Shown here in pieces: positions 2,650 through 62,851 of a DNA stretch of 64,000 bases. Under the pieces are notes generated by a model. That model was not told the origin of the DNA and ran no database searches. It saw only the letters and a list, made by a program, of their open reading frames with translations. The first letter of the stretch is position 1; every line of letters starts with the position of its first letter. Made by a program: the position numbers and the translations under genes. Origin of the DNA: Octopus sinensis (Eukaryota); contig NC_043013.1 of NCBI RefSeq assembly GCF_006345805.1, positions 51,336,001 through 51,400,000 on the forward strand. Direction: 5' to 3'.

Positions 2650-2830
2650 AGGCGTGTGGCTTTGTGGTTAGGTCATACGACTCACGATTGTAAGGTCGTG
2701 AGTTCAATTTCCGGCGACGCATTTTGTCCTTAAGCAAGATACTTTATTTCACGTTGCTCCAGTCCACTCAGCTGGCAAAAATGAGCTGTACAGTGTTTCA
2801 AAGGGCCAGCCTTGTCACACTCTGTGTCTC
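2650..2830 (+). mobile_element. tRNA-derived SINE family D
   Basis: tRNA-like head GGCGTGTGGCTTTGTGGTTAGG...GAGTTCAATT; body TTTATTTCACGTTGCTCCAGTCCACTCAGCTGGCAAAAATGA shared with 23.4 and 44.8 kb. Confidence 0.75.
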
Positions 2831-3775
2831 TGATAGATAGACATTTTCCAGTTAACCATGCTTATAGGAAACTCTTCAATAGACACAATTTAAAAATTAG
2901 TTTTAGTTCAACTACCAATTTTAAAAACATAATCAATCATAACATACAAAAAACACAAGAAGAAAACAGCTGTTCATGCAGGAATAAAGAATTGTGCCCG
3001 CTAAATGGAGCTTGCATGTCCAAGACCATCATATATGAAGCTACCGTAAACTCTATAACCACTAAAGACACCGTTTCGACGAAGAAATACGTGGGCCTGA
3101 CAGAGGGTAATTTCAAGGCCAGTTCAATAACCACCACTTTGAGCTTTAGGCACTGGAACAAAAGAAAAGCGACACAATTATCCAATCATATTTGGTCTTT
3201 AAGAGATAAGGTGTCGATTATAACATACAATGGAAGATTTTGGCCAGATGTAAGCCCTACATTAACGGCAGCGGAAGGTGCGGTTTATGCGACATGGAGA
3301 GATGCTTATCTGGAAAAGCAGTAGACCCTACCACATGTCTAAATACAAGGACAGAGCTTTTCGGATCATGCCCACATGTGACTAAATTTCTGTTACGTTT
3401 TTGGTCCCCTAAAGAAAACGGATAGAACATGCTTTCTGTGTTATGTCCCAAGAAGATTTATATATTTTTATATATTTTTATATATTTTTATGTATTTTAA
3501 TATAATTTTTATGACGAAAAATGCGAGCGATGTATGAGTACGCAGGCAAAGCAGAGTTATAACAGAGTAATTTCCCTCATTTTTACGGTATTTTTTCATA
3601 ACGTTTTCAAATAGCTAGATAACCGAAGAGATGGGTTTGTGGATTTCCACTTCGGCATCTGAAACTCAGAGTTTTATCTTGACTACCGAGTAATGTAACA
3701 TATTGTATAGATAAATTTCCTCTATTTACATAATATTGAGGTCTCTTTCTTTCTTTTGTTATCTTACCGTTTTAT
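2829..3775 (+). mobile_element. Penelope-like retroelement 3' remnant: frameshifted GIY-YIG endonuclease plus 3' UTR/pLTR with hammerhead
   Basis: Translations KLFNRHNLKISFS, CSCRNKELCPLNGAC, IIYEATV...YVGLTEGNFK, LSNHIWSLRD and (frameshift) CGLCDMER...CLNTRTELFGSCPH match the PLE GIY-YIG C-terminal pattern. Confidence 0.85.
3617..3679 (+). ncRNA. Type I hammerhead ribozyme motif in the PLE 3' region
   Basis: agataa CCGAAGA gatg..catc t GAAA ctc a gag TT ttatct: stems I-III pair, U4C core variant. Confidence 0.65.
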
Positions 3776-3849
<74 letters not shown>

Positions 3850-28530: not shown

Positions 28531-28827
28531 CTATAAAAACAAATCGTATGAGAGGAGACTATATATTCATTAGGCACTTGAAATACTTAGTGCTGTGCAA
28601 CCTTCTCCATGCAATATTATATTCAGCATAGAGAAAATTGTGCGCACATGTTTTCATTAATATGTGTGTAGCGAGACCCGTGAATATTTCACGGAATTAA
28701 ATTTAAACCTATTGGGTATTTCCTTAAAACTTTCCTCAAAAAAACTGTGTTGTGTCTGTATCAAAAGTTAGTTGCTCATCTGCTAATCATTGAAAAGTGA
28801 AGGAAATTGGAATAAGATGATTACCTA

Positions 28828-30040
28828 ATGCACTATGCTATGATATGCCACAAACTACGTGACCTCGGCATAGCTGGGAAACTTGGAGTGTGGTTGCATG
28901 ACTTCCTGAAAGATAGGAGTCAGGCAGAAGGGGTTAATGGAGCCACCTCTATGAACACACACATAGTGAGCGGTGTTCCACAGGGCACTGTCTTGGGACC
29001 ACTGCTTTTTATAGTGGCCCTCTCAGATATGCCCTCAAATGCCCGGATAACCACTCTGGCCAGCTATACAGACGATACAAAAGTCTCGCAGAAAATACAG
29101 AACCCCAGCGATGTTGCACACCTGCAGCAGGAGTTGGACTCAATCTACAGATGGTCTGAGGATAATAATATGCAGTTTAATGCTGAAAAAATCCAGGCCC
29201 TGCGCTACCAGCATCCAAAACTGAATATTAAACTTATAGGATACACCGGTCCACAGGGAATTTCAATCCCAGAGCCTAAGTCTGTGAGGGACCTGGATAT
29301 CGACATGAGTGATGATACCTCTTTCCAAGTGCACATTACCAGGATGGCGACAAAGTGCAGACGACTGGCTGGGTGGATCCTAAGAACATTCAGAACCAGA
29401 GATAAGGAACCATGATGGTCCTCTGGCGGACATTCGTCCTCAGTCGCCTGATTCTGCTCACAGCTATGGTCACCCACCAGTGTAAAATTAACAGCGGACC
29501 TTGAAGCAATCCAGAGAAGATTCACAAAGAAGATCGTCTCTTTGCAACAGCTCAGCTACTGGGAAAGGTTGAAACAGCTAAGACTCTACTCCTGGAGAGA
29601 AGACGGGAGAGGTATGCAGTAATATATGTCTGGAAGATCCTGGAAGGAATTGTGCCAAATTTTGGCATTGTAAGCTACACCAATGCTAGAACGGGACCAC
29701 ACTGCATAGTGCCAAAGATCCCAGCAATGCCATCACGCTTCAGGACCAGCTTCTGCAACAGCCTGGGTTTCAAGGGCCCACAGCTTTTTAATATTCTCCC
29801 AAAGAGTTTGAGGAACTTGCACAAAGTAGATGTAGCGGTTTTTAAATCAAAGCTGGACATCTTCCTGTCAAGAATCCCAGATGAACCTACCTCACGGCAA
29901 GAGGTGCAAATGAGAGTAGCTATATCAAACTCCATTCTTCACCAAGTGCCACATATTAGACGAGGTTCGTCGCAATAAGATTGTAGCACAAAACGGCGGT
30001 GCATCAGCATGGCCGCAGCTCTGAGCTGAAACTAGAAAAA
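28828..30040 (+). mobile_element. CR1/L2-clade LINE, 5'-truncated: reverse transcriptase C-terminal half with frameshifts and 3' UTR
   Basis: SGVPQGTVLGPLLF, YTDDTK (YADD-like), WSEDNNMQFN, LEAIQRRFTK, SYWERLKQL, LERRRER; A-rich end. Confidence 0.9.
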
Positions 30041-31351: not shown

Positions 31352-32345
31352 GCACATTGCAAGCAAAAGCTCAGAATACGCAGATTTGAGAAAAGAGTCA
31401 AATACTAAAAGCAAAATAAGATGTTCAAATCCAATGCCAAATCATTTTACAGGAAAATGGGGAAAGAAAAAATAAACATTGAAAATCCACCCCTAACGGA
31501 AGAAGGTGAAAATTTTTGGAAAGGGATCTGGAGTGATGAGAACCCCATACAATGAAAAGGCAGACTGGATCAAACGCACCCAAGATGCCTACAAAAATGT
31601 ACAAGAGCAGGTATGCCGATTCTGTAACGATGAGTTTGAAACTATAGACCACCTAATCTCAGGGTGTAGAGTCTTAGCACCCGTAGAATATGAAGCAAGA
31701 TATGACCGAGTCGGCCAGTATTTACACTATCGGCATTATAAAATCAAAACCGCTGACAAATGGTATAAACACCATCCTGAAGCTGTGACTGAGGGAGAAA
31801 ATGTGTCGATTCTCTTGGACTTCCCCGTACATAGCGACAAAACTATAAAAACTAATAAACCGAATATTATTATAAAAGATCAGACAAAAAAGGTGTGTTT
31901 ATTAATTGACATGTGTATTCCTTGCGATCACAATTTGGCGGCGAAAGAATTTATCAAGATCAGTAAATATAAAGACTTGCAAATAGAAATTGAAAAAATG
32001 TGGCATCTCAAGGCGACTACAGTACCAGTGATTGTAGGATCTCTAGGAATGATAAAATAAGGTACTGAAACATATTTGAAAATGATACCAGGCTTACCAT
32101 CCCTACAGGAAGTGCAAAAAATCTTGTTAACTGGAACGGCTCATGTACTGAGAAGAGCGTTATCGCTGTGAAAACAACATTCATTCATGAATTCATTTAT
32201 TTATTAATTTTTTTAAATACATATTTTACCTGTGAATTTGCGTGTGTAATCTGGGAATGCATACAATGAGCTTCTCTGCCCCAGGTGTACGGAAAACACT
32301 CGGCGAGAAATGGAAAAATATTGTAGAAGGAAAAAAAAACATTCA
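31352..32345 (+). mobile_element. R4/Dong-like LINE with RT domain deleted; retains pre-RT region, CCHC knuckle and RLE domain
   Basis: QNKMFKSNAKSFYRKM...FWKGIW...NEKADW joined to CRFC..ETIDHLISGC, NKPNIII..LLIDMCIP, KISKYKDL, PVIVGSLG, TAHVLRRALSL*. Confidence 0.85.
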
Positions 32346-42822: not shown

Positions 42823-43113
42823 TATATATAATATATATATATATATAGATATATAATATATATATATATATAATATATATATATATATAATCAATATAGG
42901 GTGGCAGAAAAAAATTTTGTAGAATTCTTTTTGCCACCAGCGGCCTAGTGGGAAAGAATTAAATAGTCATAGACCATTTTTAAGTTCAACATCAACAATC
43001 AAGGAACGGCCATGATAGGCCATTCACCCACTAGAAATAACAGCCAAAGCTTCAACCGCAAATAAAGATTAATTCCGTAAACAGGAGAAAATTTAAAAAA
43101 CATTTACCCTGTA

Positions 43114-43220
43114 ATTTCTTGTACGATGCACCGTTTCATCTGCTGTTTAATGGTAAACTAACCTGATTAAATTAAATCAAGCCAATCTTCCATAGGCCCT
43201 CAGATTCTTCAGCAAGAAAT
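43114..43220 (-). ncRNA. Type I hammerhead ribozyme (inverted copy)
   Basis: Reverse complement of 43650-43756. Confidence 0.75.
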
Positions 43221-43649
43221 AGCCAAGTCGGAACAGATATTTTCACGAGGCATTTCAAACCCTGCCAAGGTAGGGTAAATGTTTTTTAAATTTTCTCCTG
43301 TTTACGGAATTAATCTTTATTTGCGGTTGAAGCTTTGGCTGTTATTTCTAGTGGGTGAATGGCCTATCATGGCCGTTCCTTGATTGTTGATGTTGAACTT
43401 AAAAATGGTCTATGACTATTTAATTTTTTCCCACTAGGCCGCTGGTGGCAAAAAGAATTCTACAAAATTTTTCTGCCACCCTATATTGATTAATTATGAA
43501 TTCTGGTTAATTCCGTAATGGAATAGACGGCTTATATTTATTTGCTGCCGATAAATTTGGCGCGAGTGCGACGATTTGAAAATTTTAGGTCAGATATTAC
43601 CTTGGCAGGGTTTGAAATGCCTCGTGAAAATATCTGTTCCGACTTGGCT

Positions 43650-43756
43650 ATTTCTTGCTGAAGAATCTGAGGGCCTATGGAAGATTGGCTTGATTTAATT
43701 TAATCAGGTTAGTTTACCATTAAACAGCAGATGAAACGGTGCATCGTACAAGAAAT
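43650..43756 (+). ncRNA. Type I hammerhead ribozyme with extended loop II
   Basis: atttcttg CTGAAGA atctg..cagat GAAA cgg tgca tcg TA caagaaat; predicted cleavage after 43748. Confidence 0.8.
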
Positions 43757-43944
43757 TACAGGGTAAATGTTTTTTAAATTTTCTCCTGTTTACGGAATTA
43801 ATCTTTATTGCGGTTGAAGCTTTGGCTGTTATTTCTAGTGGGTGAATGGCCTATCATGGCCGTTCCTTGATTGTTGATATATATATATATTATATATTAT
43901 ATATATATATATATGTGTGTGTGTGTGCATATTGGTTGATTGGT

Positions 43945-45778: not shown

Positions 45779-45794
45779 ATATATATTTTTTTTT

Positions 45795-46380
45795 TTCAAC
45801 AATATTAAGGAATGGCCCTGATAGGCTATTCGACTCACCAGAAAGAGCAGCCAAACTCAAACTGCTAAATAGTAGTAATTCAGAAATCAAAGGAAAATCA
45901 AAAACATTTACCCTAATCATCCTTGGACAATGCATTGTTTCGACGTACTTTTTGGCAAACCAGCCTAATTAAATTAAATTTAATTTAATCAAGTCAATCT
46001 ACCACTGGCTCGTCTCATCGGCAAGGAATAAATATTCCTCCTGGCTTCCTTGCCGATGAGACGAGCCAGTGGTAGATTGACCTGATTAAATTAAATTAAA
46101 TTTAATTAGGCTGGTTTGCCAAAAAGTACGTCGAAACAATGCATTGTCCAAGGATGATTAGGGTAAATGTTTTTGATTTTCCTTTGATTTCTGAATTACT
46201 ACTATTTAGCAGTTTGAGTTTGGCTGCTCTTTCTGGTGAGTCGAATAGCCTATCAGGGCCATTCCTTAATATTGTTGAAATTATATATATATAGTCTGTT
46301 CCTATTTTCTCTTTCTGACTGGACCGCTAGTGGCGAAAAAAAATTCTATTGAATGTTTTGCTACCCTTGTATTGATTAAT
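45795..46380 (+). mobile_element. HHR fold-back element, copy 2
   Basis: ~235 bp arms 45795-46028 and 46046-46280; homologous to the 43 kb and 57 kb copies. Confidence 0.9.
46047..46154 (+). ncRNA. Type I hammerhead ribozyme (mirror copy 45920-46027 on minus strand)
   Basis: tccttg CCGATGA gacg..cgtc GAAA caa tgca ttg TC caagga; GUC site, predicted cleavage after 46148. Confidence 0.8.
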
Positions 46381-46431
46381 ATATACATATATATATATTT
46401 CTATTCCTGAGCGTTATACTAATACATCTGT

Positions 46432-46684
46432 TAACAGGTTAGCTTGGGAGGTTAAGCAGTTGTGGTTGCTGAAAGCCCTGGGAACAGTGAGTAAAATATT
46501 GAGAAGTATATGGAACAAATAGGGGCTGCAATAAAGGTGGATCGCTTTCAGAAAACAGCACTGCTTGGAACTGCTCCAATACAGCGGAAGGTGCTCGAAA
46601 AATAAGGTGCGTTACCTTAGTTCACTGGTAGTAAACAGCTGATACCATAGTACATCTCCAGCGTTAGAAGATGTGCAAAGACAA
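46432..46684 (+). mobile_element. R4/Dong-like LINE 3' end with TAA tail
   Basis: NRLAWEVKQLW...EKYMEQIG...QKTALLGTAPIQRKVLEK*. Confidence 0.8.
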
Positions 46685-57198: not shown

Positions 57199-57499
57199 GC
57201 ATGCATGTATGTATGTATGTATGTATGTATGTATGTACGTATGTATTTATATATATATATATATATATATACATATATACAACAACAAATTGAGGAACGG
57301 CCATAATAGGCCGTTCGACCCACTAGAAAAAGCAGCCAGGGCTTCAACCGCAAATAGTAGTAATTCCGTAAACAGAGGAAAATTAAAAAACATTTACCCT
57401 GTTCATCTTTAGACAATGCATTGTTTCAGCGTTTTTTAATGGTAAACCAGCCTGATTAAATTAAATCAAGTCAATCTTCCAAAGGCCAACGCAAGGCTC

Positions 57500-57600
57500 C
57501 TTTACTGATGAATTGCGTTGGCCTTTGGAAGATTGACTTGATTTAATTTAATCAGGCGGGTTTACCATTAAAAAACGCTGAAACAATGCATTGTCTAAAG
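57500..57600 (+). ncRNA. Type I hammerhead ribozyme
   Basis: cttta CTGATGA attgcgtt..aacgct GAAA caa tgca ttg TC taaag. Confidence 0.75.
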
Positions 57601-57977
57601 ATGAACAGGGTAAATGTTTTTTAATTTTCCTCTGTTTACGGAATTACTACTATTTGCGGTTGAAGCCCTGGCTGCTTTTTCTAGTCGGTCGAACGGCCTA
57701 TTATGGCCGTTCCTCAATTTGTTGTTGAATTTATTAATAGTCTCTGACTATTTCCTTTTTCTCACTAGACCGCTGGTGGCAAAATAATTTCTACTGAATT
57801 TTTTGCTACCCTAATATTGATTAATTGATAATTTTCTGTTTAATTCCGAAATGGAATCGGCAGCTTATATTTGCTGCCGATAAATTGGCGCGAGTACGAT
57901 GATTTTGAAAATTTTAGGTCAGATATTGCCGAGGCATTAAGGTAGCTGCCTCGTGTAATTTCTCTCCCTCCTGGCTC

Positions 57978-58078
57978 CTTTACTGATGAATTCCGTTGGC
58001 CTTTGGAAGATTGACTTGATTTAATTTAATCAGGCTGGTTTACCATTAAAAAACGCTGAAACAATGCATTGTCTAAAG
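57978..58078 (+). ncRNA. Type I hammerhead ribozyme (second tandem copy)
   Basis: Same as 57500-57600 with two substitutions. Confidence 0.7.
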
Positions 58079-58293
58079 ATGAACAGGGCAGTTGAAAGGG
58101 CAGTTGAAGCCGAAACCACGAATAAATGGAATTTCAAAGGGAAAGAAAATAAAAAACATTTTTGTAGTTACCATCAATTTTGCTGCTGAATCTAACTGCG
58201 CTTGCGCGGTGGATTCGAAAATTATGATGTATAAGTATGTAGCACGTATGTTTTCGGTGCTATTTGCTGCATAAATATGCATTAATTTTAGCG

Positions 58294-62010: not shown

Positions 62011-62013
<3 letters not shown>

Positions 62014-62830
62014 TCAAAGAGTTATAGCTATTTCTTCTACTAAAAAGGGAGATCTCAGTAAAAACAGCAATTGGAAGGCAGACACAAACAGGTAAGAGAG
62101 AATGAATTGACGGCAATCTATCATACAATTTTAAGTTATCTACGGACGTACGTTTCGAAATCAAGTTTTTAGGAAAGCATAAGAATTAAATATTAAATAA
62201 TTCTATCTCACCAAAACTTCTTTTCTCTTCAGCGTAGAATACTACGGATAACCATATTTTATCTCAGTAGATGACCACAGCATCTTGTTTTGGCTACACG
62301 CGGGTGGGAAGGGGCTGGTGACACAATCTTCTCATTCACACATTGAGTTTGGTGATACTAGTTGCGGATTCTAGCTCGCTCTGATACTGAGTTGAGTTGG
62401 TGCCTTCTAGTATCTCAAAATTCAATATATAATCATTTATGATTATAGTATTCTACGCTGAAGAGAAAAGAAGTTTTGGTGAGATAGAATTATTTAATAT
62501 TTAATTCTTATGCTTTCCTAAAAACTTGATTTCGAAACGTACGTCCGTAGATAACTTAAAATTGTATGATAGATTGCCGTCAATTCATTCTCTCTTACCT
62601 GTTTGTGTCTGCCTTCCAATTGCTGTTTTTACTGAGATCTCCCTTTTTAGTAGAAGAAATAGCTATACTCTTCGACTGCTATTTCTAAATTCGGTATGTG
62701 GTAAGGCAATTCGTTGCTAAACCCTTTATTGCTTAGTATTACTTAAATTTTCCTCGAATGAGGCTTTTACATGCCGAAGACTACTTGGTGTAATTGATAA
62801 TTATTCCAAATTAATTAATTTCACCCTTCA
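62011..62830 (+). mobile_element. HHR fold-back element of a second family
   Basis: ~233 bp arms 62011-62244 and 62446-62678, ~200 bp spacer, (TA)n flanks. Confidence 0.9.
62452..62551 (+). ncRNA. Type I hammerhead, canonical core (mirror copy 62139-62238 on minus strand)
   Basis: tctacg CTGAAGA gaaa..tttc GAAA cgtacg TC cgtaga; predicted cleavage after 62545. Confidence 0.8.
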
Positions 62831-62851
62831 TTATTACGGATATATATATAT

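What the first reader, a model, noticed from the sequence alone, without database searches (positions are those of the whole stretch)
45795..46380. Compensatory covariation in all three HHR stems across the family
Stem I is atttcttg/caagaaat (43 kb), tccttg/caagga (46 kb), cttta/taaag (57 kb). Stem II is atctg/cagat, gacg/cgtc, gcgtt/aacgc. Stem III is cgg/tcg or caa/ttg, always closed by the palindromic TGCA loop. Sequence changes while pairing is retained, which argues for selection on the ribozyme fold rather than a chance motif. Short palindromic stem III is established as the feature that lets type I HHRs work as dimers.
Basis: partly seen in the sequence, partly recalled or inferred. Interest (0 to 1): 0.78.

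Follow-up and report, generated by a model that had tools for sequence, protein, structure and literature searches.

The report
Hammerhead retrozyme copied by Penelope machinery
These are three copies of a common ~480-base non-coding repeat whose hammerhead-ribozyme motif keeps one of its three stems paired through repeated matching changes; the repeat likely cuts its own RNA, probably as a pair, and is likely pasted back into TA-repeat DNA by a Penelope-type retrotransposon.

Summary
The stems are really there. The 43, 46 and 57 kb motifs are type I hammerheads in three lineages of one ~470-490-nt non-coding repeat (at least 3,459 matches genome-wide, control 0; host probably an octopus). With a tree control on 175 distinct copies, covariation is strong in stem I (9 compensatory events against 0.7 expected, p<1e-4). 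It is consistent but underpowered in stem III (1 event plus wobbles, no breaks, p=0.12). It is not significant in stem II (p=0.18), where the 57 kb helix is shifted by indels rather than covarying. The TGCA loop is invariant, so it shows no covariation. The catalytic core changes only at N7, N17 and U4 (U4C at 46 kb). Helix II carries a ~60-nt extension and Rfam misses the motif. Insertions are head-to-head in (TA)n with two fixed 3' ends, one per arm (63 of 64), the same rule as a Hydra-clade Penelope-like element in this genome (10 of 10). Verdict: a metazoan non-LTR retrozyme, likely mobilised by Penelope-like machinery. Cleavage, dimer action and circles are inferred, not shown.

The parts
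45794..46380 (.). Whole 46 kb insertion (lineage B): head-to-head arms flanked by T/(TA)n runs
   Evidence: (I1, 235 nt, 99%)
45794..46028 (-). Left arm, 5'-truncated, ends at the short (S) site
   Evidence: L001: S/L
46030..46380 (+). Right arm, 5'-truncated, ends at the long (L) site
46047..46154 (+). Type I hammerhead with U4C core (CCGATGA 46053-59), stem II 46060-63/46129-32 with ~65-nt extension, GAAA 46133-36, self-complementary helix III 46136-47, predicted cut after C46148
45920..46027 (-). Inverted copy of the same hammerhead (C3 at 46021, predicted cut at 45926)
42888..43879 (.). 43 kb insertion (lineage A, youngest): minus arm 42888-43272 (L end), plus arm 43272-43879 (1.25 units, S end)
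43650..43756 (+). Type I hammerhead, core CTGAAGA 43658, predicted cut after A43748
43114..43220 (-). Inverted copy of the 43 kb hammerhead (C3 at 43212)
57268..58088 (.). 57 kb insertion (lineage C): minus arm 57268-57494 lacking the 5' core (S end); plus arm 57495-58088 with two hammerheads 478 nt apart, 3' end not at S or L
57500..57600 (+). Type I hammerhead, core 57505-11, re-registered bulged stem II, predicted cut after C57595
57978..58078 (+). Second tandem hammerhead, core 57983-89, mismatch in stem II

Best explanation
This is a ~470-490-nt non-coding repeat carrying a type I hammerhead motif whose stem I covaries across lineages; its tandem transcripts are likely cut by the ribozyme (probably as a double hammerhead) and likely closed into circles, which a Penelope-like RT/endonuclease would copy back into (TA)n sites. 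Shown: the motif, stem I covariation, core conservation, tandem and head-to-head layout, two fixed 3' ends used one per arm, (TA)n flanks, no coding frame. Inferred: self-cleavage, dimer use, circularisation, and that the helper nicks both target strands and primes reverse transcription at two fixed internal RNA sites (about +131-143 and +226-235 from the cut), with the two cDNAs joined at random 5' truncation points. Selection acts on the source lineages that keep transposing; single genomic copies such as the 46 kb one (small U4C lineage, arms self-complementary) likely just decay.
For: Pattern anchored off the stems: 3,459 matches, control 0. Stem I: 5 of 6 pairs change on both sides in 29 chosen copies. 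On a tree built from non-stem columns of 175 distinct copies there are 9 internal compensatory events against a null mean of 0.72, p<1e-4. This held on two trees, where pairs I.1, I.4 and I.5 show 2 or more events and 0 of 789 (or 780) background column pairs do. Stems I+III: pair kept:broken is 16:4 on internal and 11:27 on terminal branches, Fisher p=0.0003. Core C3, G5, A6, G8, A9 show 0 internal changes, free N7 shows 5, and 52% of non-stem columns change. 211 of 221 arms end at two sites and 189 of 221 run into (TA)n. 63 of 64 fully resolved junctions are one short plus one long end; 2 of 144 5' ends lie near the cut site (about 2.7 expected); 116 of 144 arms cross a cut site. A Hydra-type element in the same genome follows the same rule in 10 of 10 two-arm insertions. 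The double hammerhead is favoured in 6 of 6 modelled dimers and is within 0.5 kcal/mol of the minimum for A and A2. Longest ATG frame in the units is 21-73 aa.
Against: Stem II is not significant in fixed register (p=0.18) and is weak and bulged in lineage C; stem III alone is p=0.12. The U4C core lowers in vitro activity in a viroid (PMC3088659, passage) yet that lineage spread (71 exact matches). In modelled monomer circles the full hammerhead is not the dominant fold (stem I pair probabilities 0.01-0.21). No autonomous element sharing this terminal sequence was found. For an Anolis element, hammerhead cleavage was not needed for insertion in vitro (PMC11167929), and 8 of 9 Xenopus retrozyme dimers did not cleave (10.64898/2026.07.22.740005). 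Nearest-neighbour models always favour a 12-bp duplex over two 4-bp hairpins.
Confidence: 0.7

Rival explanations
1. The hammerhead cleaves efficiently as a monomer, helped by a loop I to loop II contact (conserved GGY 5' of stem I pairing with conserved GCY in the helix II internal loop); the palindromic loop is incidental.
For: Helix III has 4 bp plus a tetraloop; invertebrate retrozyme hammerheads with shorter helix III cleave as monomers (PMC7229834, abstract and sections). GGY is present in 158 and GCY in 172 of 175 copies. The active monomer fold costs only 0.5 kcal/mol locally at 43 kb.
Against: The GGY/GCY pairing shows no covariation. The helix III hairpin is about 0 to +1 kcal/mol against -14.5 to -17.5 for the duplex. 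The 10-nt and 6-nt helix III inserts of three unrelated families in the window all have palindromic tetraloops (TGCA, GTAC, AATT).
Confidence: 0.25
2. The fold is kept as a structural or protein-dependent element of the RNP; uncleaved multimeric transcripts, not circles, are the templates.
For: cDNA 5' ends are not enriched at the cut site and arms run through it. The U4C lineage transposed. The Anolis hammerhead needs protein and is dispensable for insertion in vitro (PMC11167929).
Against: The catalytic letters are what is conserved, with change confined to N7, N17 and U4. Arrays of up to about 9 units could only shrink through 5'-truncated copying of linear templates, so something must regenerate them.
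Confidence: 0.2
3. The paired changes come from template-switch correction of hairpins or from a few founder events, with no selection on a ribozyme.
For: Only a handful of deep lineages exist, and stems II and III carry one or two events each. Short hairpins such as helix III could be corrected by template switching (own knowledge).
Against: The strongest signal is in stem I, whose strands are 5-8 nt long and ~100 nt apart. Events recur on separate branches and exceed tree-based and background nulls. G-U intermediates are sampled in stem III (CGA/TTG copies).
Confidence: 0.05
4. The units are only truncated terminal repeats (pLTRs) of an autonomous Penelope-like element that was not sampled.
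For: The architecture is that of Penelope-like insertions (PMC8557442); only about 220 arms out of thousands were examined.
Against: Arms continue upstream into further copies of the same unit for up to 3.3 kb, never into an RT or endonuclease frame. The four RT/EN hits in these loci are separate decayed elements. None of 30 GIY-YIG loci or 30 Hydra loci shares the unit beyond TA runs.
Confidence: 0.08

Closest known systems
Metazoan non-LTR retrozymes (Cervera and de la Pena 2020, PMC7229834; Li et al. 2026, 10.64898/2026.07.22.740005)
   Same: Non-coding tandem units of a few hundred bases, one type I hammerhead per unit, low GC, thousands of copies, co-occurring with Penelope-like elements.
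   Different: The unit (470-490 nt) is longer than the 170-400 nt RNAs of the 2020 paper, though inside the 51-972 bp range of the preprint. Helix II has a ~60-nt extension. Insertions are head-to-head with two fixed ends in (TA)n; 'inverted' and 'orientation' have 0 occurrences in the 2020 text. Circles and cleavage are not shown here.
Penelope-like element pLTR hammerheads (Cervera and de la Pena 2014, PMC4209133; Lunse et al. 2017, not held, known only through PMC6765202)
   Same: Type I topology, palindromic helix III and loop 3, families with compensatory changes, proposed dimer action.
   Different: Not minimal: helix III is 4 bp, helix II is long, G10.1-C11.1 is kept only in lineages B and D, and no RT-endonuclease frame is attached.
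EN+ Penelope-like elements, Hydra clade (Craig et al. 2021, PMC8557442) and Anolis Poseidon (Frangieh et al. 2024, PMC11167929)
   Same: Partial tandems, an inverted 5'-truncated copy, a 'tail' at one end between two internal RT start sites, (TA)n or AT-rich targets.
   Different: Non-autonomous. The tail is ~90-105 nt rather than 30-40 nt, and is on exactly one arm in 63 of 64 cases; no terminal sequence identity to the sampled helper candidates.

Membership tests
Type I hammerhead ribozyme | Core C3-U4-G5-A6-N7-G8-A9 ... G12-A13-A14-A15.1 ... U16.1-H17 | tested here: met
   Met at 43 and 57 kb. 46 kb has U4C, a natural variant reported for a viroid.
Type I hammerhead ribozyme | Three helices around the core, helix I open-ended, supported by covariation | tested here: inconclusive
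   Helix I significant; helix III unbroken but p=0.12; helix II p=0.18 and re-registered in lineage C.
Type I hammerhead ribozyme | Self-cleavage after N17 | not testable with these tools
   Needs in vitro transcription.
Rfam hammerhead families | Score at or above the gathering threshold | tested here: not met
   0 matches in 6 loci; no hammerhead family among the 150 best of 461 window matches shown. The long helix II is the likely reason (inference).
Metazoan non-LTR retrozyme | Tandem units of a few hundred bases, each with a type I hammerhead | tested here: met
   113 unit-to-unit intervals of 450-509 nt, 63 distinct; tandem runs.
Metazoan non-LTR retrozyme | No protein coding; low GC | tested here: met
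   Longest ATG frame 21-73 aa in 6 units; the sequence is AT-rich.
Metazoan non-LTR retrozyme | Expressed as linear and circular unit-length RNA | not testable with these tools
   Only assembled contigs were available; they cannot show ends or circles.
Penelope-like element (autonomous) | RT plus GIY-YIG frame between pLTRs | tested here: not met
   No such frame joined to any sampled arm.
Penelope-like element (insertion signature) | Partial tandem, inverted 5'-truncated copy, tail at one end, microsatellite target | tested here: met
   definitions from PMC8557442 and PMC11167929.
Dimer-dependent minimal PLE hammerhead | Helix III of 0-2 bp with palindromic loop, inactive as monomer | tested here: inconclusive
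   Palindrome met; helix III is 4 bp (not minimal) but marginal by energy; activity untested.

The most novel reading that the evidence does not exclude
Octopus-type genomes hold several abundant retrozyme families with long-helix-II hammerheads that Rfam and short-spacer descriptors miss, and their insertions record the Penelope integration step directly. One protein dimer would nick both strands of (TA)n and prime two reverse transcriptions at two different fixed sites of a circular RNA, exactly one site per strand. This would be direct genomic evidence that retrozymes are mobilised by Penelope-like (here probably Hydra-clade) machinery, and a ~480-nt natural substrate for rebuilding the reaction.
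Probability: 0.4. Interest if true: 0.65.

Novelty: new variant of a known kind. Interest (0 to 1): 0.42.

Why it matters
Covarying hammerheads with palindromic helix III in Penelope-related repeats are in print, so the finding as written is expected. What adds value is the surrounding anatomy. Who mobilises animal retrozymes is still argued from co-occurrence and pLTR similarity; here the insertions carry the Penelope signature, with a near-strict one-short, one-long end rule shared with an autonomous Hydra-type element. That makes both the helper question and the origin of Penelope inverted repeats testable with a small RNA. The long helix II also suggests that hammerhead counts from short-spacer descriptors are too low.

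Tried and rejected
Rfam: no hammerhead match; the microRNA-like hits are the inverted repeat and microsatellites. Expression: no RNA holder listed on record. Four runs guessed to be RNA gave 31-111 contigs each over 28-29 of 29 bins of the unit, with 2-8% running on into unlike sequence, but no silent-stretch control is available, so expression is left open. Palindrome-preserving loop changes: 9 matches with a non-T first loop base against 11 in the control, 5 of them decayed lineage A copies, so none found; the other three loop positions were seen only in fetched copies. Whether both arms come from one RNA molecule: inconclusive (39 loci: arm-to-arm closer 6, equal 18, further 15). Helper with shared terminal sequence: not found in 30 Hydra loci, 30 GIY-YIG loci or the ~220 arms. 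Loop I to loop II pairing: conserved but without covariation. MAFFT does not put proximal stem II in register, so it was left out and tested by core anchoring. R-scape is not available; tree-based nulls were written instead. Earlier findings of this scan: none. Literature: 'hammerhead ribozyme'+'octopus', 'retrozyme'+'cephalopod', 'octopus'+'Penelope'+'hammerhead' and 'hammerhead'+'long stem II'+'retrotranspos' showed no description of this family; the library lacks most subscription papers, Repbase and Dfam, Lunse 2017, and the 2026 preprint's supplements, any of which could hold it.

Full report
Observation. Each reads stem I, C(U/C)GANGA, stem II with a 58-75-nt insert, GAAA, a self-complementary helix III closed by TGCA, UH, stem I: a type I hammerhead layout. 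A descriptor found 9 hits in the window against 0.02 per shuffle in 100 shuffles. Two details were missed: the 46 kb core is CCGATGA (U4C), and the 57 kb gcgtt/aacgc helix sits 3 nt off the core.

The element. The motifs belong to one repeat of 470-490 nt (113 intervals, 63 distinct). The genome is 2.72 Gb and rich in TA microsatellites, and a full-length element in it reads as a close relative of the published Hydra-1_Obim (compared by eye), so the host is probably an octopus. A pattern fixed on the loop and a downstream anchor, with stem letters free, has 3,459 exact matches and 0 in the reversed control. Lineages A, E, C, B and D differ by 13-37%. The 46 kb copy is in the small lineage B (71 exact matches to its 5' motif). 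Units have no long frame.

Covariation, descriptive. I chose 29 sequences (the 3 window copies and 26 copies taken mostly from 67 cluster representatives, avoiding visibly decayed ones, so this set leans towards intact pairs). Stem I had 5 of 6 pairs changed on both sides, stem III 1 of 4, and the distal helix II extension 2 of 15. Cells with two-sided change were 51, reached by 0 of 500 shuffles. RNAalifold recovered stems I and III and the distal extension unaided, but not proximal stem II.

Covariation, tree-controlled. From 344 anchored blocks, 48 lacked a recognisable 5' core and 4 were too near a locus end; the remaining 292 gave 175 distinct copies, and the tree used 174 non-stem columns. 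Stem I shows 9 compensatory events on internal branches against a null mean of 0.72 (p<1e-4). Stem III shows 1 event, 4 wobble steps and 0 breaks (p=0.12). Stem II in fixed register shows 2 compensatory events among 3 co-changes, with 10 breaks (p=0.18). The result for stem I held with a second tree and clades of at least 3 copies from 2 loci; pairs I.1, I.4 and I.5 each have 2 or more events with at most one break, as do 0 of 789 and 0 of 780 background column pairs. The outermost pair I.6 is unstable between trees. Within lineages B and D stem II is well paired (42-46 of 46 per pair) with one clean G-C to A-U switch. In lineage C it is re-registered by indels, and in A and E its first pair is often A.C or A.A. 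So 'all three stems' is too strong, but the fold is under selection. C3, G5, A6, G8 and A9 never change on internal branches, while N7 changes 5 times, N17 once and U4 in lineage B. The parser allowed one core mismatch, which biases towards intact cores. In stems I and III, changes keep pairs on internal branches (16:4) and break them on terminal ones (11:27; p=0.0003), as expected if source lineages are selected and single copies decay; assembly errors add to the terminal count.

Dimers. The TGCA loop never changes on an internal branch and no palindrome-preserving variant of its first base was found genome-wide, so the palindrome is conserved but not shown by covariation. Unrelated families in the window also have self-complementary helix III. 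The helix III hairpin is worth about 0 to +1 kcal/mol and the duplex -14.5 to -17.5. In 6 of 6 modelled tandem dimers the double hammerhead beats two monomers by 10-16 kcal/mol. These models favour long duplexes by construction and ignore tertiary contacts. At 43 and 46 kb each strand holds one hammerhead, and read-through across the inversion removes the fold entirely (pair probabilities 0.00); only 57 kb and tandem arrays elsewhere offer cis dimers.

Insertion anatomy. 211 of 221 distinct arms end at one of two places, about +131-143 (S) or +226-235 (L) from the predicted cut, and 189 of 221 run into (TA)n. Of 72 head-to-head junctions, 64 had both outer ends resolved: 63 pair S with L, 1 is L/L, 0 S/S; 8 had one unresolved end, and one locus was counted twice. 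5' ends are spread over the unit, 2 of 144 lie near the cut, and 116 of 144 arms cross a cut site (loci were found through the hammerhead, which inflates that last figure). The template is therefore a circle or an uncleaved multimer, not a linear monomer. A Penelope-like element with Hydra motifs RWK, DKT and CxCX5C, whose 3' end is in the window, shows the same S/L pairing in 10 of 10 two-arm insertions and also targets (TA)n. No sampled autonomous element shares terminal sequence with the unit, so the helper is inferred from signature only.

Mechanism. Shown: fold, covariation, architecture. Inferred: tandem transcripts self-cleave, probably as double hammerheads; monomers are ligated to circles; a Penelope-like protein nicks both strands of (TA)n and primes at S on one strand and L on the other; rolling copying gives tandem arms; the two 5'-truncated cDNAs join with little or no overlap (most junctions -7 to +2 nt).

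Comparison with print. PMC4209133 (parts 1-2 of 4 read) describes PLE hammerheads with palindromic helix III, covarying families and a circle model. PMC7229834 (passages and section 14) defines metazoan retrozymes and names PLEs as a strong candidate helper. 10.64898/2026.07.22.740005 (parts 1-3 of 5) argues PLE origin from co-occurrence and pLTR similarity in vertebrates. PMC8557442 (passages, section 11, supplement rows) describes inverted 5' copies, tails, Hydra motifs and a spacer limit of 17 nt in its core search. PMC11167929 (passages and part 2 of the main text) maps two internal RT starts and cleavage of both strands, with no start-site difference between strands in vitro. PMC3088659 (section 8 and passages) reports U4C as a weakened but viable viroid variant. 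PMC6765202 and PMC6962438 were seen as passages. Lunse 2017 was not held. Searches for an octopus or cephalopod description found none, within the library's limits.

Verdict. A real hammerhead-bearing retrozyme family, a variant of a known kind. The covariation claim holds for stem I, is compatible for stem III and is unproven for stem II. Interest 0.42, mostly for the insertion rule that ties the family to Penelope-like machinery.

Noticed in passing
window 2785-3790 (+): 3' end of a Hydra-clade Penelope-like element (11,752 first-look candidates, many near-identical) with its own hammerhead at 3617-3679, also with a CCGA (U4C) core and a 31-nt helix II.
   Followed up: partly
window 62011-62840: Head-to-head insertion of a second, unrelated 593-nt retrozyme-like family, with hammerheads at 62458 (+) and 62232 (-), a 69-nt helix II and a palindromic helix III; tandem copies occur elsewhere.
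   Followed up: partly
window 61421-61343 (-): A further hammerhead-like motif with a long helix II and palindromic AATT loop next to (TA)n; family not examined.
   Followed up: no
L237:2361 and L236, L246, L250-L252: A GIY-YIG Penelope-like family with a CX2-5CXXC linker carries a hammerhead-like motif with the U3-A8 core covariation and a 6-nt palindromic helix III.
   Followed up: no
window 46041-46046 and 46064-46068; same positions in all lineages: Conserved GGY in the stem I internal loop is complementary to conserved GCY in the helix II internal loop: a possible tertiary contact, without covariation.
   Followed up: partly
window 46239-46262 and 46329-46368: Each of the two fixed 3' ends (S and L) is preceded by a hairpin or helix kept across lineages; candidate recognition sites for the helper protein.
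   Followed up: partly
window 46420-46605 (+); 28816-29978 (+); 31497-32060 (+): Fragments of non-LTR retrotransposons: RVT_1 match at 28.8 kb, weak zf-RVT match at 31.5 kb, and a 3' end resembling a restriction-like-endonuclease LINE just right of the 46 kb insertion (recalled motif, not tested).
   Followed up: no
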